Origin: a phage
Sequence record: PZ787336.1
Reading direction: 5' to 3' (one strand)
DNA: 47,147 bases
Below the pieces are notes generated by a model. That model did no database searches. It saw nothing but the letters and a program-made list of their open reading frames with translations, and was not told where the DNA came from. Position numbers and translations under genes: made by a program. Positions within the stretch are counted from its first letter, which is position 1. Each line of letters starts with the position of its first letter. This document shows positions 12,630-43,888 of this stretch, in pieces.

Positions 12630-13097
12630 TTACGCAGCAGGTCTGGAAGCATTGCCCGCGCGACGAACTGCAACCAGCTCAGCGCCATCAGAGGCAACGG
12701 TATAAGTTTCGTTGGAATAGAACAGGATGTTCTCACCAGTTGCGGCAACTTTCAGCGCACCAGTACCATCACTTGCCAACGGGGTGCCTTTCTTCAGTTC
12801 GGAAGATGCAGCAACCAGTGCGTGATAGGTGACGCCAAATTCACACTGCACAGCCATGCCAGTAGCATTAGCCGGAACAGCTTCAGACACATCACCACCG
12901 CCAATGTAGTTGTGCTGAAGCACGTAAGGGAAACCCTGACCGCCAGCGGTAGCGTGTGCGATGATTTTGTCATCAGCAGTATCGAAGTCAACCAGTGCTC
13001 CCGGCTTCAGCGCTACCTTCATGATGCCTTCGCGAATCTGCGGGTCGTTCTTGCGAGCTGGGCCACCAATGATGGTGCCATAACGGATAGTAGCCAT
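12630..13097 (-). CDS. putative head decoration protein
   Basis: 155 aa Gly/Ala-rich ORF between protease-scaffold and capsid genes. Confidence 0.45.
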
Positions 13098-14509
13098 TAT
13101 TCCGGTGCCTCCATATCAAAATCGTCATCAGCGTGGTTCGGCTGGAAGCCACCCTTCAGCGCGGCAGGCTTGCTGGTCAGCGCATAGGTTTCACGCAGTG
13201 CTTCGCCTTTCAGCGCATTCACGGCGGATTCCGGCAGTTTCAGTTCAGCGATGATAGCAGCACGCATCGCAGTTTCTTCCTGCTCGGTATTCGCCTGCAA
13301 TTGCTCTTTCAGCTTAACATTTTCAGCTTCGATGTCGGTCAGCTTCTGGTTGACAGCTGTCAACGATTCCTGAACCGGCTTGAGGGCATCAGCGAGTGCC
13401 GCCTGTAATTCCTCGTTCGTCATTGAGATTTCCCCTTCAGTTGATTTTACCGGCTCAAGTTCAGTCTTATAAACAGCCTTGACCCGCTCACCGACCAATT
13501 TTACCACATCATCTTCAACGATGTAGAACTGCTGAAAAATCTGGCCTTTGATTTCAAACCCGACACGGTCGTCGTAAACAGCCACAATGTAAGGCCATAC
13601 ATCTTCACCGACTTCAGCTTTCAGAATCTGGCGAATCTGCTCACTGATGTTCTCAAACGACAGGTCTGATTTGTTGGTGATGTAGTTGATGGCTTTGTGT
13701 AGCCACGATTTATAATTAATTTTGTTGGCGCTTTCGTCTGGCACGGTTGAATCCTCAAGATTTACAGTGATGCGTTCGATTTGCTCGCCGTTGGTGGCGA
13801 AGATTCCCACGCCATCTTCTGGAGTTCCGGCCCCCGGCACTCCCGGTGGCAGGATGGCGAGATGATCCCACTCCATGTTGCGTGCAATCCATGTGTATTT
13901 CTTGCCTTTACTTGTGCCTTCCGCAGCTTCGCGGTTGAGCAGCAAGCCAGTGGATACGTGGATTGGCTCAGCGCCTTCTGCGGAGTTCATTAGCGCCTCA
14001 ATGCGACCGAGCAACTCCCGTCCTTTCTCTGAGCGTTCGGCAATGACCTTGTTAACCTTCAGGTCTACCAGCGCCTTGCTACCATCATGGGATGAGTTTT
14101 CAATCCATGCCCCAACACTGAATTGGTTAGCAGCGCGCGTCATGCTTGCGGAGACATATTTACCATCAATCATCGGGTGATTGTATGGCGCAGGCTTACC
14201 ATCAAGGCCGTGATAGCTCTTGCGAATTTCCTCGCCAGGATACAAGCCGTTATTCATCACAACATCGTCAACAACTGGCACGACGTTTTTAATCACGTAG
14301 TGCGGGTCGCCATCAATGATTTGCTCACTGATATTTCTGGCTGAATTGATGGTCGTCAGTACGTTAACCTGCAATTTATTATTCATGTGCTTGAACGCTT
14401 CCACTTCTGTGAGGCGTTTTTTGGCGGCTTCTTCTGTATCGTATTCGCCAAATTGCTGTGAGCCATCTGTCGACTTGACCACCCACTTATCGCCAATCTT
14501 GACAATCAT
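13097..14509 (-). CDS. putative prohead protease / scaffolding fusion protein
   Basis: about 470 aa; C-terminal third is a charged coiled-coil-like scaffold region; ATG at 14509 preceded by GGAGAG; the track ORF extends to 14587 from a TTG. Confidence 0.55.
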
Positions 14510-15558: not shown

Positions 15559-15817
15559 TTAGTACGTCCTCAGCAAGTTTGCGGAACATGATTTGCACTC
15601 TTGCCACTTTGCGCCACTCAGCTTCGGTGAGAATCACATCCTCCTGCTGCGGAATTCCCGACATTTCGCATGGCGGTAATGGCTCATACTCTTGCTTCTT
15701 GCGTTTGGCTTTTCCCATGCTGACCTCTTGCGCTGCGAAGAAGTAAATTAAACAGGTTGCTGACATTAACCTCCTGCTCATGCCATGAGTAACGCCACAG
15801 CTTCTTGTGGTGGTCAT
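15542..15817 (-). CDS. hypothetical protein (start uncertain; may begin at internal Met)
   Basis: ORF begins inside a 19-bp tandem duplication. Confidence 0.4.
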   Translation of the reverse strand: MTTTRSCGVTHGMSRRLMSATCLIYFFAAQEVSMGKAKRKKQEYEPLPPCEMSGIPQQEDVILTEAEWRKVARVQIMFRKLAEDVLNEMGY

Positions 15818-15842
15818 AGCTTCTTGTGGTGGTCATAGCTTC
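15799..15842. repeat. perfect 19-bp tandem direct repeat (agcttcttgtggtggtcat x2 plus partial third copy)
   Basis: two identical adjacent copies at 15799-15817 and 15818-15836 straddling a gene boundary. Confidence 0.6.
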
Positions 15843-28919: not shown

Positions 28920-29363
28920 TCACGCATTCTGCTGCTCCAGTAATTTCTCCAGTCGCTCAAGTCGCGCTGCGAGTTCGGTGATTTCCTGAATATCAAGGCC
29001 AGACTTGATAATGTCAGCCATCATCTTGCCGATGTCAGCAGGCACGACGCCAGTGGAGACACCCTTGATGATTGCATCCATTTTCTGAACCGGAGTTCCG
29101 TCAGCAGGGAAGTCAAACTCCACAGGAGGAGCTACAGGCTTAGGAATTGGGTTGAGCCGCAGGAATATCTCTCGAAGCATACCAGTTGCCTGAGCGTCTT
29201 CGCATGTCATGGCCCTATTGATGTAATACGTGACGAATTCAATCTCATTCATCGGTGTATTTGCAGCACGAAGCGCCTCAAGCAGCACTGTGCGATAACT
29301 CTTACCGCGCGGAGGCGGTTGATTTGTAGAGGAAAACTTGTGTTTTGGATTTGGATTCGCCAT
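28920..29363 (-). CDS. terminase small subunit
   Basis: 147 aa ORF immediately upstream of the large subunit, C-terminal coiled-coil-like LERLEKLLEQQ; position-based. Confidence 0.6.
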   Translation of the reverse strand: MANPNPKHKFSSTNQPPPRGKSYRTVLLEALRAANTPMNEIEFVTYYINRAMTCEDAQATGMLREIFLRLNPIPKPVAPPVEFDFPADGTPVQKMDAIIKGVSTGVVPADIGKMMADIIKSGLDIQEITELAARLERLEKLLEQQNA

Positions 29364-29421
29364 GTCTTTTTGTGTTCTTTGAGTAACTCACATACGCTAA
29401 TTTTAACACATAGACGTAGAC

Positions 29422-29447
29422 AAAAAAGAACCCGCACAAGGCGGGTT
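29422..29447 (-). terminator. rho-independent terminator after the HNH gene
   Basis: minus strand AACCCGCCttgtGCGGGTT followed by cttttttg. Confidence 0.5.
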
Positions 29448-29543
29448 AAAGGTTGGGTGATGATATAAGTGAAAGCAATGGTGGTTATGCGTTTATTGTA
29501 CACCATCATTATCGCGCTTGCCAACAGAGCATCATAAACACAT

Positions 29544-30011
29544 TTATTTTTTTTCGTTCTCTTCCTGGTATTTCTCAAACCAGAAAACAACTGGTCTCTC
29601 CACCACGGCGATAAGACCGAAACGCTCTGCAGTGCGGAAATTCATGCTGCTTTTGCGCCCACGAGCAACCTGAAGAGATACCTGCTTCCTGAACATTTCC
29701 AGGGAATAGGAAGTTTTCATCAGATTGCAGGGGGCGCACGCAGGGTAAAGGTTTTCCAGTCGCTCGGCTTCTGGTCGATATAGCTCACCGGTTGCCTTCA
29801 GCTTGAAAATCCCTTTCGCCGCTGCCTTCATGCACTGCTCAGATTTACGTAGCACTGGTTCAACATGGTCTGCATGCCAACCTTTCTCGGGTAGCTCACA
29901 CCCACAATAAGCACAGCGACCACCGAACTTCATGCGTAGCTCTTCGCGTTGTTTTTTTGTTAGCTTCATTTCATCTACCATTTGTATGATTTTTTGTGTA
30001 GCACCATGCAT
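29544..30011 (-). CDS. HNH endonuclease (terminase-associated)
   Basis: CAYCGCEL...WHADHVEPV...CAPCN HNH motif; located directly upstream of the terminase small subunit; the track ORF extends to 30068. Confidence 0.75.
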   Translation of the reverse strand: MHGATQKIIQMVDEMKLTKKQREELRMKFGGRCAYCGCELPEKGWHADHVEPVLRKSEQCMKAAAKGIFKLKATGELYRPEAERLENLYPACAPCNLMKTSYSLEMFRKQVSLQVARGRKSSMNFRTAERFGLIAVVERPVVFWFEKYQEENEKK

Positions 30012-30124
30012 TTTCATTTCGCGTCTGCACATGAACGACTTCAAGCGCGTCAGGGAATGTCTTTGCAACCTTCTCGATGAAATCGTCTAATTCGTGCTGC
30101 TTTGCGAGTTGCCAGACTTTCTGT

Positions 30125-31575: not shown

Positions 31576-31758
31576 TCAGAACACGACAATCAGCTCATCC
31601 ATTACTCTTCGCTTTCCTTCACCATTAAACACGCGCACAACGCGATTTACGCGGATAGATTCCATTGCATTGCGTGCCTGCTTGCTCATGAAGTTCTGCG
31701 CGCCAACGTGACCGAGTTCCTGCTCCAGTTTCTCGCGACGATAGATAGTCTTTGCCAT
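31576..31758 (-). CDS. hypothetical protein
   Basis: 60 aa ORF. Confidence 0.4.
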   Translation of the reverse strand: MAKTIYRREKLEQELGHVGAQNFMSKQARNAMESIRVNRVVRVFNGEGKRRVMDELIVVF

Positions 31759-31938
31759 TTATTGCACCTCGCAAGAGTTAATGATTGACTTAATGCGACG
31801 GCGATACAGCTGCATGATGTGTTCGTTATGCCAGTTGCTCATCTTATTACTCCTTATACCCTGATTTGGAAACTGCCACTGCGATAATGATGAATGCCAC
31901 GGTAACAAGACTGGCAATAAGTTCGAATGCTGCGCCTG

Positions 31939-32085
31939 TCATTTGCTTAACCCATACGCTGAGATTAAAGCCTGCATTGCTGCGTTCCAGAATGCTTCTG
32001 CAGGAATGCTTTTGTTTGTGCGCTCAACTGCAATGCGTGCCATTGCCTGTGCATCTTCAAATTCTTCACGGTCTTTGATTTTCAT
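31939..32085 (-). CDS. hypothetical small protein, first gene of the leftward early operon
   Basis: about 48 aa, starts about 30 nt downstream of the minus promoter at 32116-32144. Confidence 0.3.
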   Translation of the reverse strand: MKIKDREEFEDAQAMARIAVERTNKSIPAEAFWNAAMQALISAYGLSK

Positions 32086-32115
32086 CTCTTCACTCTCGTT
32101 TGTTCCGATGAGTTC

Positions 32116-32144
32116 AATCTACATCAATGATGATTCTACGTCAA
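32116..32144 (-). promoter_or_regulatory. sigma70-like promoter TTGACG-N17-TAGATT on minus strand
   Basis: plus cgtcaa 32139-32144 and aatcta 32116-32121; adjacent to the iteron region. Confidence 0.5.
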
Positions 32145-32159
32145 CATAAATGCGTTAAA

Positions 32160-32475
32160 AACGTGCTCGTGGGGTAAATTTTTGCCCGTGGGGCAGGTCG
32201 TGGGGAAGGTGGTATGCCCCACGGGAAACCCTTGCGCCATGCGGCTTTTAACATGTTTGGGTAAGTGGGGCAGATTTCATACCCATCCCCTTATAAATAT
32301 ATTCAAATAATCCATTTGTTAATATTATGTTAATTACTATCTATAATATGAATAATAATATTACCCATTACCCCAAATAATAATAATTTTATTATATTAC
32401 ATATACTTAGAGTAAAAGTTCGTGGGGAAGGTGATGTTCCCCACGGCTGCCCCACGTTACCCACGCGAGTCGTAT
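32160..32475. other. putative origin of replication: CGTGGGG/CCCCACG iterons flanking an AT-rich stretch
   Basis: at least 8 copies of the 7-mer in both orientations on either side of a roughly 130-bp AT-rich segment, immediately upstream of the replication protein gene. Confidence 0.55.
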
Positions 32476-32520
32476 TTGATGTTGCATGAATCAATACTTA
32501 TGATATGATTCAATCATAAT

Positions 32521-32760
32521 TTGTTGCTGTTGGAGGCTTTTGTGAAACTTGATAAGTACGGCAAAAAGAATGCAGCTCTTTCTGGGTTGTCGGCGGTTTC
32601 AATAGGTGAGACTGTGATGATTAATTCGAAGAGGTTTGGAGGAATTGCAAACCTGAGGAACGCATTAAACTACTTCATGCGCAGGAATGAAGGCATGAAA
32701 TTCTCAACAAAGGTTGGGTATCCTGACAAAGACATGGTTTACGTAAAAAGGATTTCATGA
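32521..32760 (+). CDS. hypothetical protein preceding the replication protein
   Basis: track ORF; probably starts at an internal GTG after a GGAGG RBS. Confidence 0.4.
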   Translation: MLLLEAFVKLDKYGKKNAALSGLSAVSIGETVMINSKRFGGIANLRNALNYFMRRNEGMKFSTKVGYPDKDMVYVKRIS

Positions 32761-34313
32761 TGATCACAGCGCAAGACATCTTCAACGAAGCAAGGGAGTT
32801 AAAAGTATCTCCGGCTCGCGTTGCCTTCCATCATGGCATGACACCAAGTTCTAACATGTGGCTTGACATCAAGGAAGGAAAGGAGCGCGATGTAACGTAC
32901 TCAGAAACAGAACTGACCAGTGAGCACCGGACTGATTTGCTGTCTCGTTATGCAATCGCTGCAGCTCGCGCAGTTCAGTTCCCAATAAATACATCGTTCA
33001 TGCATTTACTTGGGTGCGTTGCCAGCGCAATGACGAGAAACTTTAGCGTTGAGTATTACCATTCAGAACTTCCAGTCTCTCTTTACGTGGTGACTTCTCA
33101 GCCTCCATCAGCAGGGAAAACAGCCATCAACTCAATGCACATGAATCCGGTGAAGATTGAATATGACAACCTTTCTAAAAAGATGGAAAAGCAAATCATA
33201 AAAATAAATCTTCGCATCGAAGAACTGATGAAGGCATACAAAGAGGCCAGTAATCAGAATGCAAAGGCACTAATCGGAGATGATATTGCTCGCGAAAAGG
33301 AGAAGCTGGAGGAGCTTTATACGATCACATATCCACTGACGGACGCAACTCCGGAGGCTGTTCAGCATCAGGCCATTCATGAAGGTGGTTTTTTTAATCT
33401 GATAAGTGACGAGGCAAGCGTTCTTAACACATGCCTTGGCCTTTCTTACGGAAAAGAAGGTGGAAAGGCAAACGCCGAAGTAATCCTGAAGGGATGGGAT
33501 GGCGGATTCATTGGCTCTGCTCGTGTTGGTCGTGGCGTTTCATCTGGTTACGTGCTTGGAAACATAAGTGTGATTGCGCAGGATGAAAGTATTGATGCCA
33601 TTCTTGCCGCTGGCGACAGGGGGAACGGTCTTTCTGAACGTTTCCTGATGTTGCGAGAGCAATCAATGCTTGGCTATCGCGAACACTGGGACATGGTTAA
33701 TGATTGCCCTGTAAGCAAGCCAATGCCAGACAGCTTGAGGTCGGAATATGCAAGATTTATACATAATGTTGTGTCAGCAGAAAAAACAAAACTGACGCTT
33801 CACAATGACTCAGCAAGAATGATCGGCCTGTTACGAAATCAGTGGGAGAAAAACTTCCTTCCCGGCGGTAAGTGGGACCACGTTCTTCTTCGTGGCGCGA
33901 TGGGTAAAGCTGATAAGCAAATAATACGTCTGGCAGCAATATTTCACGCTGCTGAAAACTGGTGCGATGGAGGAAAGCGTTCAAAGATTATCGGTGAAAA
34001 TGAAATTAGTCGCGCCATCAGTGTTTATGACGCACTGACAAAAACGTTCACTGATGCTGTTGAATCAAATGGGTATGCTGGTGAACGATCTGAGTTTGAT
34101 GTTGTTGCCGAAAAACTACGCTCCGCCGCTCAGAAAGGGAAAAATAGCGTAACGGTGAAGTGGCTTTATGATTCACTTAAAAACGTGCGACCATTCAAAG
34201 GGATACCTAAAATTTATGACCGACTCAGATCAAGTGTATTGCCATCACTTGAAGAGGATGGTTACTGCGTATTTATCGGAAACACTGTTCACATAAATCC
34301 GAGGTTGAAATGA
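32757..34313 (+). CDS. putative replication protein with P-loop (DUF3987-like)
   Basis: 518 aa, P-loop-like SQPPSAGKT, directly downstream of the iteron origin. Confidence 0.55.
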   Translation: MMITAQDIFNEARELKVSPARVAFHHGMTPSSNMWLDIKEGKERDVTYSETELTSEHRTDLLSRYAIAAARAVQFPINTSFMHLLGCVASAMTRNFSVEYYHSELPVSLYVVTSQPPSAGKTAINSMHMNPVKIEYDNLSKKMEKQIIKINLRIEELMKAYKEASNQNAKALIGDDIAREKEKLEELYTITYPLTDATPEAVQHQAIHEGGFFNLISDEASVLNTCLGLSYGKEGGKANAEVILKGWDGGFIGSARVGRGVSSGYVLGNISVIAQDESIDAILAAGDRGNGLSERFLMLREQSMLGYREHWDMVNDCPVSKPMPDSLRSEYARFIHNVVSAEKTKLTLHNDSARMIGLLRNQWEKNFLPGGKWDHVLLRGAMGKADKQIIRLAAIFHAAENWCDGGKRSKIIGENEISRAISVYDALTKTFTDAVESNGYAGERSEFDVVAEKLRSAAQKGKNSVTVKWLYDSLKNVRPFKGIPKIYDRLRSSVLPSLEEDGYCVFIGNTVHINPRLK

Positions 34314-34501
34314 TAACAATATCAGGCGAACTTTGCCGCTCAGAAGGCTCATGGAATTTCAGACCGTATGGTTATTCGACGTGGTTTTTCTGGTCTGGGA
34401 TTAACAAAGTATGGATTCGATCTAATTACCACGTACTTGATGATTACTGGCACAGATTTTCTGTTGGTTATGTTGACATTTCAAAATTGATGATTAAGTG
34501 A
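34310..34501 (+). CDS. hypothetical Trp/Tyr-rich small protein
   Basis: 63 aa ORF. Confidence 0.35.
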   Translation: MITISGELCRSEGSWNFRPYGYSTWFFWSGINKVWIRSNYHVLDDYWHRFSVGYVDISKLMIK

Positions 34502-34511
34502 GGGTAAGGAA

Positions 34512-34769
34512 ATGGATGTAAAAGAGAAGGTTTTGCAGGTGATGCGTTCCCGGGCTGCCCTGCAAGAGAAAGCTCTCGGCGGGGAATATCCATTCAGGAT
34601 AGCAACATGGAATTTGCGGTTGGCAATGGAGAAGGAATTTCCTGATGAAGAATGGCGTTCGGCAGATTTGCGAAAAATTCTTATGGAGCTGGCTAAAGAC
34701 GGAGCGGTATCCAAAGACACCTATGCCAGCCGGATTGGTCAGGCGGTATGGAGACTGGAGGCGCGGTAA
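34512..34769 (+). CDS. hypothetical protein
   Basis: 85 aa ORF. Confidence 0.4.
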   Translation: MDVKEKVLQVMRSRAALQEKALGGEYPFRIATWNLRLAMEKEFPDEEWRSADLRKILMELAKDGAVSKDTYASRIGQAVWRLEAR

Positions 34770-35074
34770 TGGCTAACCTGCAACTTGCTGTCAAAGGTGA
34801 ATACTTCGATGCCATGATTCGCGGAGAGAAAACGGAAGAGTATCGCCTTTTTAATGACTACTGGAAGAAGCGCCTTATTAACTTTAAAGACAGCGGACAG
34901 ATTGGAAGGAAGTACGAAAGGTTAATTATCACAAAAGGATATCCAAAGAAGGACGATAAATCCAGGCGTATTGATATCCCATACGATGGATGGACGGTTA
35001 AGACCATCACCCACCCACACTTCGGTCCTGACCCGGTGGAAGTGTTCGCAATAAAAGTTAACATCAAAGCATAA
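34769..35074 (+). CDS. ASCH-domain-like protein
   Basis: about 100 aa, pattern LAVKGEYFDAMIRGEKTEEYR resembles ASCH/PUA-like domain proteins; the track ORF starts at 34748. Confidence 0.45.
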   Translation: MANLQLAVKGEYFDAMIRGEKTEEYRLFNDYWKKRLINFKDSGQIGRKYERLIITKGYPKKDDKSRRIDIPYDGWTVKTITHPHFGPDPVEVFAIKVNIKA

Positions 35075-35075
35075 C

Positions 35076-35105
35076 AAAAACCCTCCAGTCGGAGGGTTTA
35101 TTTTA
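35076..35105. terminator. bidirectional rho-independent terminator
   Basis: aaaaaCCCTCCagtcGGAGGGtttatttt. Confidence 0.7.
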
Positions 35106-36056
35106 TCTGCTTACTGGCATTTTCTCTATCAGCTCGCCAGCGTCATAAATCTTTCTCCTGATTCTCTTTGCCATCCTTATTGTTTCAGCATCATCAGGAA
35201 GCATCACCGGAAGCCCTGCATTTTCCGCAGCGCAAAGTTCGTCGAATTTATAATTAACTATGCAGCGCAATCTCGCCTTCGTTTCATCGCTAACCGAGCG
35301 CACAACCTCCCACATGTTTTCCGGCGACCAGCAGCACCAGGCATGAGCGCCAGTGAAGTAGTGGCATTTCCACGCATCGGCATAATCAGATACCAGGTAA
35401 ATGAACTTCCCGTTGTCTTCTCCGATTGGGCTTATCGCGCCGCGCGTGAGTTTGCCGTTGATGGCTGAGTCCTTGTTGTATCCTGCGCGGAAAAACGTTC
35501 TGATTGAATCACCATCCATGCCAATGAATGCCACGTTGCACAGTTTCATTGTGTCAGCTCGCATCATCTCAACCGCAATAAGTTCTCCAGATTTGCCTCT
35601 GGTGACGTTAACGTCGCAACCAATACCATTTATCAAAGTCCACTCATTCATCGCGACACGAGTCGTTTTAGCCATGATTGCTGCGACTTCCTGCTCGGTG
35701 ATGAAGTCATCGCTGTGATTTATCTTCGGTAGCTCTTTCCTGATTGCCTCCAGCTTTTCACGCGGGTGCATATTCAGGAATCCACCAAGTGCCTCCAGCG
35801 CTTCAGGAAAGCTCATTCCGGAGAGTTTCATCAGCCAATTCATGCCGCTGCCGGAACCGCACTGATTGCAGATTGCGCCGCCATCGCCTTTTGTTTCGAA
35901 GTTGTCATCAAAGCGATACCTGTCTTTTCCTGAGCATGACGGGCATGGCTGGTGCTTGCCATTGAAAACTCTGCTATCCACATTGACGATAGACATGATG
36001 GCAGCTTGCCAATTTCCGATCATTTTTGGCTCAATGTCTTTCCAGTCGTATCTCAT
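35103..36056 (-). CDS. DNA primase (zinc-finger plus Toprim-like)
   Basis: CPSCSGKDRYRFDD...CNQCG zinc-binding motif typical of phage/plasmid primases; ATG at 36056 with AAGGG RBS; the track ORF extends to 36167. Confidence 0.7.
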   Translation of the reverse strand: MRYDWKDIEPKMIGNWQAAIMSIVNVDSRVFNGKHQPCPSCSGKDRYRFDDNFETKGDGGAICNQCGSGSGMNWLMKLSGMSFPEALEALGGFLNMHPREKLEAIRKELPKINHSDDFITEQEVAAIMAKTTRVAMNEWTLINGIGCDVNVTRGKSGELIAVEMMRADTMKLCNVAFIGMDGDSIRTFFRAGYNKDSAINGKLTRGAISPIGEDNGKFIYLVSDYADAWKCHYFTGAHAWCCWSPENMWEVVRSVSDETKARLRCIVNYKFDELCAAENAGLPVMLPDDAETIRMAKRIRRKIYDAGELIEKMPVSR

Positions 36057-36066
36057 AAATTTACCC

Positions 36067-36094
36067 TTGATTGTTGGTGTAGATTGAGTATAAG
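36067..36094 (+). promoter_or_regulatory. sigma70-like promoter TTGATT-N16-TATAAG
   Basis: contains gtagattga; the divergent minus promoter for the primase uses the gacgtagaaacatcaa element at 36101-36116. Confidence 0.45.
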
Positions 36095-36131
36095 CTAACT
36101 GACGTAGAAACATCAATAAAAGGATATAGCA

Positions 36132-36395
36132 GTGTTCCTTGATAGCATTTTTAAGAGGATTTTTCATGGCAAGCCAATCCCTGTTGCCTTCGGATACCCG
36201 CCACGAAGCAATACATGGCTAACCATATACAGAAGACAGAGAACTGGAGAATGGATTTTTGAGTGGGATGATTTGTTTGCCGATGAGCGACCAGAAGATT
36301 ATCTATGGAATCTTAGTTATATGTATTTTTATAGCGGAATAGATGATGAAACAAAGAAACAAACAATTGAACGTCTTGGTGCGAGGATTTGGTAA
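36132..36395 (+). CDS. hypothetical protein (GTG start)
   Basis: 87 aa ORF; stop overlaps the helicase ATG (TAATG). Confidence 0.4.
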   Translation: MFLDSIFKRIFHGKPIPVAFGYPPRSNTWLTIYRRQRTGEWIFEWDDLFADERPEDYLWNLSYMYFYSGIDDETKKQTIERLGARIW

Positions 36396-41045: not shown

Positions 41046-41552
41046 ATGGCACGCGGCGTAAATAAAGTAATTATTGTCGGCACTCTCGGAAACGACCCTG
41101 AAGTTAAATATTCAGCATCAGGCTCTGCAATTGCCAACCTTTCTGTTGCAACATCTGAGCAGTGGAAAGATAAGCAGACAGGAGAAAAGAAAGAACAGAC
41201 CGAGTGGCATCGCGTGGTCATCTTCGGGAAACTTGCTGAGATTGCAGGCGAATACCTTCGCAAAGGTTCTCAGGTTTATATCGAAGGCCAGCTACGCACT
41301 CGTAAGTGGACTGACAGCAACGGCGTGGACAAATACACCACTGAGATTGTCATTCCGCAGATGGGTGGTGTTATGCAGATGCTTGGTGGTAGACGTGATG
41401 ATTCTGATCAGCAACAACCACGCCAGCAATCAGGACAGCAACCTCAAGGTGGATGGGGGACAAATCCGCAACAACAACAGCCACAAAAACAACAAAGCCC
41501 ACAAGGAGGCAATGAGCCGCCGATTGACTTCGACGACGACATTCCGTTCTGA
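41046..41552 (+). CDS. ssb: single-stranded DNA-binding protein
   Basis: OB-fold N-terminal region, Gln/Pro/Gly-rich linker and acidic C-terminal tail DFDDDIPF. Confidence 0.9.
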
Positions 41553-41561
41553 TGATAAAAC

Positions 41562-41586
41562 AAACCCCGCCTGGGCGGGGTTTTAT
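41562..41586. terminator. bidirectional rho-independent terminator
   Basis: aaaCCCCGCCtgGGCGGGGtttt between convergent ssb and tailspike genes. Confidence 0.7.
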
Positions 41587-41620
41587 ACCTTGACTACTGA
41601 TCTAACCGTACTAGTATTAC

Positions 41621-43888
41621 TCACTTAGACATAACAGCTAATGCTTCCTGCATACGCTTAATAGTACGCCGCATCAACGCAGCCTCTAATATCAGTACTT
41701 CCTCGTAACGAATACCGTAGCGGGAACCTGCTGGTGTAATCAGTTTACGAGAGCCATTGGCATCTTCCTCGTATACATCATCCCAACTGTCGAAGCACAG
41801 GAAGCCATAGCGATGTGCATCTATACCGTGACGTTCGAATGCCTCCTTAGCTCGCTGAGCGATGATGCCGAAGTGCCATCTAGCTGAGTCTGCACCCTTC
41901 TCCTCAATTCGGTACAAGTACTGAAATTGCACAAAGTCAACTTCAGACCAAGCATCCAGTAAAGCATCTGAGATAATAAGAGGCTCTGTTTTATCCCTAG
42001 CATCTGAGACAACAGTGAATGCTGATTGAGTAAAACCGCCAGACCATGCTCGACTTGCGGAACCTAATGCGTATGTATCAGTACTATCTGGGGTCATTGC
42101 ATTAGAACCTAACTGCAAATAACCTGTGCTACTGGTGGGAAGACGCACGTTACCGTTGGTGAGTGATACTGCCCGAGAAGTACCATCAGAAGTAAATAGG
42201 CGAACTTGAGAAGAAGTACCCCCACCTACAGCTAATGACACAGCACCATCCCCAAGCATTCTGTACTTATCAGCCGAGGTAAGAACGCCTGACGGAAGTG
42301 ACATGGACTTAATCCGCCATTCGAACCTACCGGACATACTGCCTATGTACTGTCCTAATGCAGGAGCGTGCACTACGTTGCTATTACTGGTGCCGTCAAT
42401 AGTAACTGCACCTTCAATAGTACCAGCAGCACCGAGAAGGTCGTTTCTCCTTCCCGGATGCTTTACCTCTACGAAGTTACGGGTAGAACCTGATTCGAAA
42501 GTAATAACACCTGTAGCACTGTAGCTAGGAAATACAGACGCATAGTTGTTATTAGCTGTATCTATAAAGCGCGCAATTGTAGCAGTTTGAGCTTGCCCTA
42601 AAGAGTTAGTACCATCACATCCTGACATAAGCACATTGCTTATTACGTTATCAGAGCCTTCTACTGTAACACCGTGAGCCTGACTAGCATCAGAGATTGA
42701 GAAATCTACAAGCACATCTGAGATTAAGTTGGCACTACCTTTGCCTGCAACAACCGCTGCATATTTAGGATTATTAGCCACTACCCCATTGATAAGGTTG
42801 TTAGAGGGAGCTATTGACCCTTCTGTACCGTTGTAAGTTACATGCTGGCAGTCTGCCCCTATAACATTGCTGACTATGTTATAACTGGCTGTACCTTTCA
42901 GTTCTACAGCCCCGAACTGAGGGTAGTCCTTAGCAATGACGTTATTTATGAGGGAGTTAACCGAGGAATCAGCAAGTATGCATCCAGCCGCCTTATTAGC
43001 AGCATAGCCGGAGTAGCTACCTCGAATGCCTTTAATCATAAGCCCATCAGAGGGTGCATCATTAGGGTATGTGATTAAACTGAAACCAATGCCCTTAACG
43101 TTTGAGAAATTAACATCACTTATAGTAACATCACTACCACCAGCAAGAGATACCTGCTGCCCTTGAGTGGTATCGGTCGCCTTATTACTTTCTACCGTAA
43201 TATTACTTAAGCGACCTGAGCGTAGATTGTTAAATACTAAGTAGTTACCTGTACTTGAACGGTGACTTAGTACACCACTGCCTCTACCGTCTAAGTTACA
43301 GTAATTACTATTAATACCAGAACTAGAGAATACACCGTCTGATGCTACGACAGCTTTTTGAGAATTTAGTGAAGCAGCTATATTCTCCGTACTATCCGTT
43401 ACACCATCCCCTTTAGCACCCCAGCCTCGAACATCACCCTCATCACGCCATCTTGCCATCTGCAATTCAGGGTAACTGGACGCACCATCCGGGTCTGAAA
43501 TCTGGCTGCGCAGGGCTGCATCACCAACACTCAACCATTTCCCAATTCCAACACCGCCAGCGGATGCAGGAGCTGAACCAGAAGCGACTGTTTTAGGGAA
43601 TTCACCATCCCAGCGGTAATATTCTCCAGTAGCTTCATAGCGCAAAACCTGATTCGGTAACGTCAGCGTCGCTCCATCTTCAAAACTGTCCATTGTGATG
43701 TAGCCATAATTACGGATTGCTTCTTCTGCGGTGTATTGGAATCCAGCAATTGTCCAGCGGCGTACACCGAAGCGATCGGTATAGTAATGTGCATCAGATG
43801 TCACTACCTCGTCGATCTTACCGGCATTAAATTTCAGGTCGCGCGGGTCTTCTGACGGAATTGGTTTATTGGTTGGTGTGGTAGCCAT
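41621..43888 (-). CDS. tailspike / tail fibre protein with C-terminal intramolecular chaperone (peptidase S74-like) domain
   Basis: 755 aa; Gly/Ser/Asn-rich repetitive beta-helix-like middle region; C-terminal ...DARDKTEPL...FDSWDDVYEE... resembles the autoproteolytic chaperone domain of endosialidase-type tailspikes. Confidence 0.8.
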   Translation of the reverse strand: MATTPTNKPIPSEDPRDLKFNAGKIDEVVTSDAHYYTDRFGVRRWTIAGFQYTAEEAIRNYGYITMDSFEDGATLTLPNQVLRYEATGEYYRWDGEFPKTVASGSAPASAGGVGIGKWLSVGDAALRSQISDPDGASSYPELQMARWRDEGDVRGWGAKGDGVTDSTENIAASLNSQKAVVASDGVFSSSGINSNYCNLDGRGSGVLSHRSSTGNYLVFNNLRSGRLSNITVESNKATDTTQGQQVSLAGGSDVTISDVNFSNVKGIGFSLITYPNDAPSDGLMIKGIRGSYSGYAANKAAGCILADSSVNSLINNVIAKDYPQFGAVELKGTASYNIVSNVIGADCQHVTYNGTEGSIAPSNNLINGVVANNPKYAAVVAGKGSANLISDVLVDFSISDASQAHGVTVEGSDNVISNVLMSGCDGTNSLGQAQTATIARFIDTANNNYASVFPSYSATGVITFESGSTRNFVEVKHPGRRNDLLGAAGTIEGAVTIDGTSNSNVVHAPALGQYIGSMSGRFEWRIKSMSLPSGVLTSADKYRMLGDGAVSLAVGGGTSSQVRLFTSDGTSRAVSLTNGNVRLPTSSTGYLQLGSNAMTPDSTDTYALGSASRAWSGGFTQSAFTVVSDARDKTEPLIISDALLDAWSEVDFVQFQYLYRIEEKGADSARWHFGIIAQRAKEAFERHGIDAHRYGFLCFDSWDDVYEEDANGSRKLITPAGSRYGIRYEEVLILEAALMRRTIKRMQEALAVMSK

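What the first reader, a model, noticed from the sequence alone, without database searches (positions are those of the whole stretch)
32160..32475. Iteron-type origin of replication between divergent early promoters
At least eight copies of CGTGGGG / CCCCACG in both orientations flank a roughly 130-bp segment of very high AT content. The region lies between the leftward early promoter (32116-32144) and the rightward replication genes, and directly precedes a P-loop replication protein gene (32757..34313).
Basis: partly seen in the sequence, partly recalled or inferred. Interest (0 to 1): 0.5.

Follow-up and report, generated by a model that had tools for sequence, protein, structure and literature searches.

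The report
Iteron replication origin of a siphophage
A cluster of short TGGGG repeats on both sides of the most easily melted DNA in this phage genome is very probably the phage's replication origin, served by the neighbouring MCM-like helicase; the design is a familiar one but had not been described for this helicase family.

Summary
CGTGGGG/CCCCACG occurs 7 times exactly, plus 2 one-mismatch copies, in 32168-32465. Only one other exact copy exists in the 47 kb window. The repeats flank a 125-bp segment of 15% GC, the least stable DNA in the window, and lie between divergent sigma-70-type promoter-like sites.

The window is a Skatevirus/Macdonaldcampvirus/Akiravirus-like siphophage, 99.8-100% identical to Escherichia phage HC6 in this region.

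Comparative evidence supports an origin:
- TGGGG cores are 94% conserved across 23 relatives, against 62% for the neighbouring bases.
- The element travels with the adjacent DUF3987 helicase into a phage with an unrelated small terminase (Pectobacterium phage Ymer).
- It is missing from a phage with homologous packaging genes (Salmonella phage 64795_sal3), which carries different repeats and a different large protein at the same junction.

The 518-aa protein models as an MCM-like AAA+ ATPase with a C-terminal winged helix. The best analogue is the SaPI ori/Rep self-loading helicase system.

No replication experiment exists for this phage group. Which protein binds the repeats is inferred. GC skew agrees but is confounded by transcription direction.

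Verdict: a new member of a known kind, of moderate interest.

The parts
32116..32144 (-). Leftward sigma-70-type promoter-like site (TTGACG-17-TAGATT). It marks the conserved left boundary of the variable replication cassette.
   Evidence: The site is conserved in relatives that carry unrelated cassettes to its right.
32168..32223 (.). Left iteron cluster. CGTGGGG at 32168(+), 32187(+), 32199(+) and 32217(-). The last two form a 25-bp palindrome CGTGGGG-N11-CCCCACG (32199-32223).
   Evidence: TGGGG/CCCCA cores are 90-100% conserved in 23 relatives, while the 11-bp palindrome spacer is 60% conserved.
32258..32270 (+). Inner-left degenerate iterons TGGGTAA + GTGGGG (AGTGGGG at 32264).
   Evidence: (D1, I4). 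Core conservation is 0.80.
32291..32415 (.). AT-rich core (15% GC), the presumed DNA-unwinding element.
   Evidence: Lowest GC and least stable 100 bp of the whole window. It is 88% conserved in relatives. Its right part (ATAATAATAAT...ACATATACTTAG.AGTAAAA) is shared with the unrelated TTATCC-type cassette of phage 64795_sal3.
32319..32347 (+). Promoter-like element inside the AT-rich core (TTAATA-17-TATAAT). The -10 lies in an invariant block, CTATAATATGAATAATAATAT.
   Evidence: 10/12 match. The block 32338-32361 is 97% conserved. Its function was not tested.
32363..32375 (-). Inner-right degenerate iterons (ACCCATTACCCCA, which is TGGGGTAATGGGT on the - strand). They form an imperfect inverted pair with 32258-32270.
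   Evidence: (I4). Core conservation is 0.84.
32421..32465 (.). Right iteron cluster. CGTGGGG at 32421(+), 32439(-) and 32450(-), plus degenerate CGTGGGT at 32459(-). The palindrome is 32421-32445. The cluster mirrors the left one (+ + + - versus + - - -).
   Evidence: (D2, I1, I16).
32476..32504 (+). Rightward sigma-70-type promoter-like site (TTGATG-17-TATGAT) for the replication operon. My own reading of the sequence gives an overlapping alternative, TTGCAT-16-TATGAT, at 32482-32509.
   Evidence: for the first site. The alternative was read directly.
32542..32760 (+). 72-aa first gene of the cassette (GTG start after GGAGG). The predicted fold is winged-helix-like. Possibly an accessory factor or regulator.
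32757..34313 (+). DUF3987 MCM-like AAA+ helicase with a C-terminal winged helix. It is the candidate initiator and self-loading replicative helicase.
32150..35070 (.). Exchangeable replication cassette: ori, rightward promoter, small genes and helicase. It is bounded by sequence conserved in 64795_sal3.
   Evidence: blastn boundaries at 32149 and 35071. Alternative cassettes sit at the same junction.
35103..36167 (-). DnaG-type primase (Zn-ribbon). It is conserved across cassette types and is a presumed partner of the helicase. HC6 annotates a shorter 317-aa CDS.
   Evidence: It is 94% identical in 64795_sal3 and 28% identical in Ymer.

Best explanation
Region 32160-32475 is the origin of vegetative replication of this siphophage.

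**Proposed mechanism (inferred).** Pentanucleotide iterons (core TGGGG, here mostly CGTGGGG) sit in two mirror-image clusters. Inner degenerate copies lie on either side of a 125-bp, 15%-GC unwinding element. The product of 32757-34313 is an MCM-like AAA+ (DUF3987) helicase. Its C-terminal winged helix recognises the iterons. The protein then assembles on both sides of the AT-rich core, melts it, and loads itself as the replicative helicase. The DnaG-type primase (35103-36167) and host polymerase follow.

Transcription may assist opening or priming. Candidates are the flanking divergent promoters and possibly the conserved promoter-like element inside the AT-rich core.

**Shown here.** The anatomy, its statistical exceptionality, its conservation pattern, its co-inheritance with the helicase gene, and the fold of the helicase.

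**Inferred.** Binding, melting, self-loading and replication start.
For: 1. **Anatomy.** There are 9 iterons where 0.35 are expected. It is the top k-mer cluster of the window. It flanks the least stable DNA of the window.
2. **Selection.** TGGGG cores are 94% conserved against 62% for other cluster positions in 23 distinct relatives. Palindrome arms are kept while the spacers vary.
3. **Co-inheritance.**
   - A contig with a 62%-identical helicase (L051) has TGGGG clusters around an AT-rich core.
   - Ymer (helicase 49% identical, small terminase unrelated) has 10 GTGGGG/CCCCAC copies in 350 bp, including the CGTGGGG palindrome.
   - 64795_sal3 shares terminase, HNH, primase and SF2 helicase genes (78-96% identity). 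It lacks both the helicase and the motif, and carries TTATCC repeats plus an unrelated 495-aa protein.
4. **Cassette swapping.** Seven further repeat types, each next to AT-rich DNA, sit at the same junction in relatives.
6. **Analogy.** The architecture matches the experimentally defined SaPI origins: 6-12 penta- or hexanucleotide iterons, a central AT-rich region, and iterons on each side pointing in opposite directions, bound by the winged helix of a self-loading helicase (PMC9371898).
7. **GC skew.** The cumulative minimum is at 32145.
Against: - No experimental datum (replication assay, footprint, marker frequency) exists for this phage group in the literature I could search.
- The GC-skew minimum coincides with the switch of coding strand, so it is not independent evidence.
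- Co-inheritance with the helicase could partly reflect linkage within one cassette.
- A fast-evolving 72-aa winged-helix-like protein is encoded between the origin and the helicase. It could be the real iteron binder.
- In the 777-aa primase-helicase cassettes, two 93%-identical proteins sit next to different repeats. The large protein is therefore not obviously the specificity determinant there.
- T1-like phages with DUF3987 homologues (35-39% identical) show no such cluster within 3 kb of the gene.
Confidence: 0.75

Rival explanations
1. It is the origin, but the iterons are read by a small accessory origin-binding protein. The candidate is the 72-aa winged-helix-like product of 32542-32760, or another small cassette gene. 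That protein then recruits the DUF3987 helicase, as plasmid Rep proteins or lambda O do.
For: - The 72-aa protein belongs to a positional family. It is the first gene of the rightward operon in most cassette types, with a shared sequence pattern and very low identity.
- The 93%-identical 777-aa helicases of L042 and L048 face different repeats, while their small proteins are only 39% identical.
Against: - Close relatives with the same CGTGGGG layout and a 99%-identical helicase replace this gene with an unrelated AP2-like 90-aa gene (L047, L039, L005, L013).
- The L043 and L050 small proteins are 87% identical but face different repeats, GCTTCCCG versus TATTTGCC.
- Ymer's counterpart shows no detectable sequence similarity although the motif is the same.
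Confidence: 0.2
2. The repeats are operators for a phage transcription factor that controls the two divergent early promoters. The AT-rich DNA is a curved or UP-like promoter element, not a replication start.
For: - The element lies exactly between two promoter-like sites.
- The 25-bp palindromes look like dimer-binding operators.
- A winged-helix-like small protein is encoded next door.
- A conserved promoter-like element lies inside the AT-rich core.
Against: - No iteron overlaps a -35 or -10 hexamer. The clusters end 24 bp and 11 bp upstream of the -35 boxes.
- The leftward promoter is kept unchanged in relatives that have completely different repeats.
- The motif tracks the helicase gene across genera, not any regulator.
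- Nine sites plus a 125-bp, 15%-GC core is more than promoter control needs.
Confidence: 0.1
3. It is a packaging signal or physical genome end (cos or pac site with terminase-binding repeats). This would explain why many database records are cut here.
For: - At least six GenBank records (Akira, KpV2811, ZC2, ZCKp20p, ZCKP8, Ymer) and several metagenomic contigs start or end inside the element.
- In Ymer it lies about 130 bp upstream of the small terminase gene.
- An HNH endonuclease gene sits next to the terminase-like genes.
Against: - Ymer has the same motif but an unrelated small terminase.
- 64795_sal3 has a homologous terminase region (78-94% nucleotide identity) but no such motif.
- PhageTerm on relative KlebP_265, which carries the element, found no termini and a fully permuted genome (PMC11769527).
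- The cut points differ between records (equivalent to window 32319-32395). This fits arbitrary linearisation, coverage loss in 15%-GC DNA, or assembly-graph breaks.
Confidence: 0.03
4. The repeats act as hairpins in RNA or single-stranded DNA (terminators or insulators), or are a neutral recombination scar with no sequence-specific protein binding.
For: - The palindromes fold better than shuffled sequence as single strands (z -2.5 to -3.3).
- One is flagged as terminator-like on the - strand.
- The region is a recombination junction.
Against: - Most copies are not in palindromes.
- Conservation is in the TGGGG pentamer itself in both orientations, not in pairing potential.
- There is no Rfam match.
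- The palindromes lie upstream of both flanking promoters.
- The same pentamer persists at 49-62% helicase identity.
Confidence: 0.03

Closest known systems
SaPI (Staphylococcus aureus pathogenicity island) ori and Rep/PriRep self-loading helicase
   Same: - Short penta- or hexanucleotide iterons, 6-12 per origin.
- A central AT-rich region.
- Iterons on both sides pointing in opposite directions.
- The initiator is itself the replicative AAA+ helicase and reads the iterons with a C-terminal winged helix (PMC9371898).
   Different: - The origin lies upstream of the helicase gene, between divergent promoters (1.7 kb upstream in Ymer). In SaPIs it lies immediately downstream of rep.
- The host is Gram-negative and the element is a lytic phage.
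- Two of the iteron pairs form 25-bp palindromes.
- Binding is not demonstrated.
Phage P4 ori/crr and alpha protein (from my own knowledge, not checked here)
   Same: One protein combines the helicase with a C-terminal origin-binding domain that recognises short repeats in both orientations. The host is enterobacterial.
   Different: - P4 alpha is a primase-SF3 helicase fusion.
- P4 needs a second site (crr).
- The repeats are TGTTCACC-type.
- I found no sequence or Pfam relation to the window protein.
Lambda-type ori (O-protein iterons plus AT-rich region; Stx phages, PMC7466680 listed)
   Same: Iterons next to an AT-rich region. The replication module is exchangeable among related phages. 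Activation by nearby transcription is plausible.
   Different: - The lambda ori lies inside the O gene.
- Its initiator is not a helicase and needs P plus host DnaB.
- No O or P homologues occur here. The window phage has its own helicases and primase.
Archaeal and eukaryotic MCM origins (ORB elements flanking a DUE; MCM double hexamer)
   Same: MCM-like fold of the helicase. Inverted recognition elements flank an unwinding element. This suggests two oppositely oriented helicase rings.
   Different: In those systems separate initiators (Orc1/Cdc6, ORC) read the origin and load MCM. Here no Orc-like gene is present and self-loading is proposed. A DUF3987 member unwinds 5'-3' (PMC11724360), unlike MCM.

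Membership tests
Iteron-type replication origin (functional class) | Cluster of several short repeats far above chance | tested here: met
   There are 7 exact and 2 near copies in 300 bp where 0.35 are expected. It is the top k-mer cluster of the window. The shuffle maximum was 3-5.
Iteron-type replication origin (functional class) | Adjacent AT-rich DNA-unwinding element | tested here: met
   32291-32415 has 15% GC. It is the least stable 100 bp of the window, about 5.5 sd from the mean.
Iteron-type replication origin (functional class) | Linked gene for a cognate initiator, co-inherited with the repeats | tested here: met
   The DUF3987 helicase gene lies about 300 bp downstream. The motif and the gene co-occur in L051 and Ymer and are jointly absent from 64795_sal3.
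Iteron-type replication origin (functional class) | Initiator binds the repeats; the fragment supports replication | not testable with these tools
   This needs EMSA or footprinting and a plasmid replication or marker-frequency assay.
SaPI-type ori with self-loading Rep helicase | 6-12 penta- or hexanucleotide iterons, split by a central AT-rich region, with at least two per side in opposite orientation | tested here: met
   Left + + + -, right + - - -, plus an inner inverted pair. The definition is taken from PMC9371898.
SaPI-type ori with self-loading Rep helicase | Origin immediately downstream of the rep ORF | tested here: not met
   The element lies upstream of the helicase gene, separated from it by a promoter and a 72-aa ORF. 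In Ymer it is 1.7 kb upstream.
SaPI-type ori with self-loading Rep helicase | Helicase of the Rep/Cch family with a C-terminal winged helix | tested here: inconclusive
   [not shown]
DUF3987 / SF6 MCM-like phage helicases (the neighbouring gene) | Pfam PF13148 match above the gathering score; Walker A and B | tested here: met
   120.5 bits against a cut-off of 27. G120, K121 and E219 are invariant, and S122 is at least 90% conserved, in 50 homologues.
DUF3987 / SF6 MCM-like phage helicases (the neighbouring gene) | [quoted passage not shown] | tested here: met
   [not shown]
DnaA-dependent oriC-type origin | DnaA boxes (TTWTNCACA), GATC clusters, IHF site | tested here: not met
   None is present in 32101-32530.
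Lambda-type ori | Iterons inside the initiator gene; O/P-type proteins | tested here: not met
   The element is intergenic. No O or P family hit was found in Pfam or PHROGs for the ten neighbouring ORFs scanned.
cos/pac packaging site | Co-varies with the terminase; coincides with physical genome ends | tested here: not met
   The motif and the terminase genes dissociate in both directions. Relative KlebP_265 is fully permuted by PhageTerm (PMC11769527). The ends of this phage itself were not tested.
Known structured RNA | Rfam covariance-model match | tested here: not met
   No match at E <= 1 in 31700-32900.

The most novel reading that the evidence does not exclude
The phage's MCM-like DUF3987 helicase is a bona fide self-loading initiator. 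It reads a mirror-symmetric TGGGG origin with its own winged helix and assembles two opposed rings around the AT-rich core. That would be a minimal, E. coli-tractable model of MCM-type origin melting without ORC, Cdc6 or a loader.

In addition, the origin and initiator form one of at least eight interchangeable specificity cassettes that recombine at a fixed junction. The junction is the conserved leftward promoter on one side and the primase gene on the other. Such exchange could let these phages escape competitors or defences that target replication.
Probability: 0.3. Interest if true: 0.6.

Novelty: new member of a known kind. Interest (0 to 1): 0.42.

Why it matters
If confirmed, this would be the first origin assigned to a DUF3987/MCM-like phage helicase. 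That family is widespread in phages and mobile elements. In the literature I could search it has one biochemically characterised helicase and no known loading site.

The element is compact (about 300 bp), and its candidate initiator is a single 518-aa protein in phages that grow on E. coli K-12 derivatives, such as the BASEL isolates Bas78 and Bas79. Binding, melting and self-loading are therefore directly testable.

The cassette picture also gives a practical annotation rule for this phage group. The origin sits to the right of the conserved leftward promoter, whatever repeats are found there. The same picture suggests a set of orthogonal ori/initiator pairs that could be used in synthetic biology.

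Tried and rejected
- **Rfam scan** of 31700-32900 found nothing.
- **PDB sequence search** with the 518-aa protein gave no meaningful hit. Only the fold comparison was informative.
- **DnaA box, IHF and GATC searches** in the region found nothing, so a host-DnaA origin was rejected.
- **GC skew.** The cumulative minimum is at 32145. I give it little weight because coding-strand orientation switches at the same point.
- **T1-like phages** with DUF3987 homologues (L055, L056) show no iteron cluster within 3 kb of the gene. The generalisation 'every DUF3987 gene sits next to its origin' is therefore not supported.
- **The 72-aa protein as specificity determinant** was considered and largely rejected. 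It is replaced by an AP2-like gene in phages with the same iterons, and the 87%-identical pair L043/L050 faces different repeats. It is kept as a rival.
- **Packaging site or genome end** was rejected by the dissociation from terminase genes in both directions and by the PhageTerm result for KlebP_265.
- **Pickard et al. 2008** (J Bacteriol 190:2580) sequenced Vi II-E1, and the GenBank record annotates the repeats. I could not read it. I therefore cannot exclude that an origin role was already suggested there.
- **Literature searches** for iterons in Jersey-like, Guernseyvirinae or Kagunavirus phages, or linked to DUF3987, found nothing.

Full report
**What the window is.** The region 31900-32800 is 99.8% identical to Escherichia phages HC6, 6947 and HC8A, and 88-94% identical to Escherichia phage C1, Salmonella phages STGO-35-1 and Vi II-E1, the BASEL phages Bas78 and Bas79 (Skatevirus), and others. 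The 316-bp element itself is found in 51 phage records: Klebsiella 24, Salmonella 11, Escherichia 9, plus Shigella, Aeromonas, Vibrio and Acinetobacter. The Vi II-E1 GenBank record already annotates two copies of 'GTGGGGCAACCAACCTGCCCCACGA' at the equivalent place, without a stated function.

**Checking the observation.**
- CGTGGGG occurs 8 times in 47,147 bp, and 7 of these lie in 32168-32456.
- With one mismatch allowed there are 9 copies in the region, against 0.35 expected.
- A scan of all k-mers (K = 6, 7, 8; strands merged) for the densest 320-bp cluster puts this locus first at every K. One hundred block shuffles never exceeded 5 copies of a 7-mer.
- The layout is mirror-symmetric. Left: + + + - (32168, 32187, 32199, 32217). 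Right: + - - - (32421, 32439, 32450, degenerate 32459). Flanking bases match in mirror order (CGTGGGGTAA / CGTGGGGCAG / CGTGGGGAAG).
- Each cluster holds a 25-bp palindrome CGTGGGG-N11-CCCCACG.
- An inner, degenerate inverted pair (TGGGTAAGTGGGG at 32258-32270; ACCCATTACCCCA at 32363-32375) lies inside the outer clusters. The first element sits just left of the AT-rich core and the second within it.
- The core 32291-32415 has 15% GC. It is the lowest-GC and least stable 100-bp stretch of the window: dG -99 kcal/mol against a mean of -138, sd 7.
- Divergent sigma-70-like promoter sites lie just outside the clusters.
- The neighbouring 518-aa ORF has Walker A and B motifs and is a Pfam DUF3987 protein.

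There are seven exact copies rather than eight. A 72-aa ORF lies between the repeats and the P-loop gene.

**Comparative anatomy.**
- I collected 29 loci encoding relatives of the helicase and aligned 23 distinct intergenic regions.
- The close group (98-100% helicase identity) keeps the CGTGGGG layout. The 86% group keeps a YTGGGG core at the same positions.
- TGGGG/CCCCA cores are 94% conserved, against 62% for the other positions of the clusters and 60% for the palindrome spacers. Selection therefore acts on the pentamers rather than on the hairpins.
- The AT-rich core is also conserved (88%). It contains an invariant block, CTATAATATGAATAATAATAT, which holds the -10 of a promoter-like element (TTAATA-17-TATAAT, 32319-32347).

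**Association with the helicase, not with packaging.**
- A contig whose helicase is 62% identical (L051) has TGGGG clusters on both sides of an AT-rich core.
- Pectobacterium phage Ymer (helicase 49% identical) carries CGTGGGGAA-N-TCCCCACG plus two further TCCCCAC(G) copies. Once circularised it has 10 GTGGGG/CCCCAC copies in 350 bp.
- Ymer's small terminase is unrelated to the window's terS-like ORF.
- Conversely, Salmonella phage 64795_sal3 shares the terminase and HNH region (78-94% nucleotide identity), the leftward early genes, the primase (94%) and the SF2 helicase (96%) with the window. It has no TGGGG cluster.
- At the same junction 64795_sal3 carries TTATCC/TTATCAC repeats around an AT-rich stretch, followed by an unrelated 495-aa protein.
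- I ran tblastn with every window ORF of 40 aa or more. Apart from an overlapping alternative-frame ORF in the SSB-gene region (41074-41628), which I take to be an artefact, the 518-aa helicase is the only ORF present in Ymer and absent from 64795_sal3.

**A cassette hot spot.**
- A pattern search for the conserved leftward promoter retrieved further relatives. Immediately to the right of that promoter they carry other repeat sets next to AT-rich DNA: GCTTCCCG, AAATGCC, TATTTGCC, TTCGCCC/TGCCCAC, CCGGTAAC and TGCCCA/GGGCAT.
- These are followed by other large proteins: 777-aa proteins I read as primase-helicases from their N-terminal sequence, not checked against a family library, and a 33%-identical DUF3987 homologue.
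- In the window the exchangeable block is about 32150-35070.
- Part of the AT-rich core (ATAATAATAAT...ACATATACTTAG.AGTAAAA) is shared between the TGGGG and TTATCC cassettes. It may serve a function that does not depend on iteron type.

**The candidate initiator.**
- With 50 homologues AlphaFold2 gave a confident model (pLDDT 89.8).
- This agrees with the published classification of DUF3987 as SF6/MCM-like phage helicases with a C-terminal wHTH (PMC4889955). It also agrees with the demonstration that a PriCT-DUF3987 protein is an ATP-dependent 5'-3' helicase (PMC11724360).
- The C-terminal segment (..VTVKWLYDSLKNVRPFKGIP..) is shared by the TGGGG-type proteins down to 49% identity. It differs in the 33-39% relatives that have other repeats or none nearby.

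**Mechanism proposed.** The helicase's winged helices bind the TGGGG iterons on both sides of the core. Oligomers then assemble in opposite orientation, the 15%-GC core melts, and the protein loads itself. The DnaG-type primase and host polymerase take over. This is the SaPI Rep model: 6-12 penta- or hexanucleotide iterons, a central AT-rich region, opposite orientations on each side, a winged-helix-bearing self-loading helicase, and ATP-independent binding and melting (PMC9371898). Binding, melting and loading are inferred here.

**Caveats and rivals.**
1. A 72-aa protein (32542-32760) belongs to a fast-evolving positional family found in most cassette types. It models as winged-helix-like and could be the iteron reader or an accessory factor. 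Two facts argue against it as the specificity determinant. It is replaced by an AP2-like gene in phages with identical iterons. The 87%-identical pair L043/L050 faces different repeats.
2. In the 777-aa cassettes, 93%-identical proteins face different repeats. Their central 300 residues are identical, and the differences are confined to the N-terminal 300 and the C-terminal 77 residues. The determinant there is unclear.
3. A purely transcriptional role is unlikely, because no iteron overlaps a promoter hexamer and the leftward promoter is unchanged next to unrelated repeats.
4. A packaging role is contradicted by the dissociation from terminase genes in both directions and by PhageTerm data for KlebP_265.
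5. The cumulative GC-skew minimum at 32145 agrees with an origin but is confounded with divergent transcription.

**Novelty and score.** Iteron/AT-rich origins served by self-loading helicase-initiators are well known. I found no paper that links DUF3987 helicases, or this phage group, to an origin. I could not read the 2008 Vi II-E1 paper. I rate the finding as a new member of a known kind, with 0.75 confidence that it is the origin and interest 0.42.

Noticed in passing
window 32150-35070; loci L033, L036-L038, L042, L043, L046, L048-L050: The DNA to the right of the conserved leftward promoter is a swap site. Related phages carry at least eight different repeat/AT-rich sets there (TGGGG, TTATCC, GCTTCCCG, AAATGCC, TATTTGCC, TTCGCCC/TGCCCAC, CCGGTAAC, TGCCCA). 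Where the sequence extends far enough, different large proteins follow these sets.
   Followed up: partly
window about 32319-32395; records MK599416 (Akira), MT682064 (KpV2811), OP481875 (ZC2), OP373729 (ZCKp20p), MZ440881 (ZCKP8), OP748252 (Ymer); contigs L016, L026, L036, L037, L042, L043, L046: An unusual number of GenBank records and metagenomic contigs start or end inside this element, mostly in the AT-rich core and at different positions. The likely causes are arbitrary linearisation, coverage loss in 15%-GC DNA, or assembly-graph breaks at a variable junction. Relative KlebP_265 is reported as fully permuted.
   Followed up: partly
window 32319-32362: A promoter-like element (TTAATA-17-TATAAT) lies inside the AT-rich core. 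Its -10 sits in a block that is invariant in 23 relatives (CTATAATATGAATAATAATAT). It could drive an origin-activating or primer transcript.
   Followed up: partly
window 32375-32418 versus L033 2577-2620: About 40 bp of the AT-rich core (ATAATAATAAT...ACATATACTTAG.AGTAAAA) is shared between the TGGGG cassette and the otherwise unrelated TTATCC cassette of phage 64795_sal3. It sits directly left of the right-hand repeat cluster in both.
   Followed up: partly
window 32542-32760 and first rightward genes of L033, L042, L043, L048-L052: A fast-evolving protein of about 70-97 aa is the first gene of the rightward operon in most cassette types. It shares a sequence pattern (h-x-x-G-D/E-x-h ... h-h-V-x-R-h at the C-terminus). 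The window copy models as winged-helix-like. It has no Pfam or PHROG family.
   Followed up: partly
L042 +1269..+3602 versus L048 +1251..+3584: Two 777-aa primase-helicase-like proteins are 93% identical. Residues 300-600 have no difference at all. All changes lie in the N-terminal 300 and the C-terminal 77 residues, and the adjacent repeats differ. This suggests recombination inside the gene.
   Followed up: partly
window 31759-31917 (-): A 52-aa ORF matches PHROG 6763, 'activator of host PrrC lysyl-tRNA endonuclease' (Stp-like), over residues 26-44 (E 3e-11). Relative ST1UNAM annotates an 'anticodon nuclease activator family protein' at the corresponding position.
   Followed up: no
window 28920-30068 (-): An HNH endonuclease gene (29544-30068) lies next to the ORF that relatives annotate as the small terminase (28920-29363, PHROG of unknown function). 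The 180-bp gap between them is 94% identical in 64795_sal3. This arrangement is typical of HNH-assisted packaging systems.
   Followed up: no
window 15799-15842: A perfect 19-bp tandem repeat is present (2.3 copies, 100% match, AGCTTCTTGTGGTGGTCAT).
   Followed up: no
window about 13006-13330: This is the second-ranked k-mer cluster of the window: six copies of GCTGAA/CGCTGA within 320 bp. I did not examine it.
   Followed up: no
L055, L056 (T1-like Klebsiella and Escherichia phages): DUF3987 homologues (35-39% identical) sit inside long rightward operons. No repeat/AT-rich cluster lies within 3 kb, so the origin, if iteron-type, lies elsewhere in those phages.
   Followed up: partly
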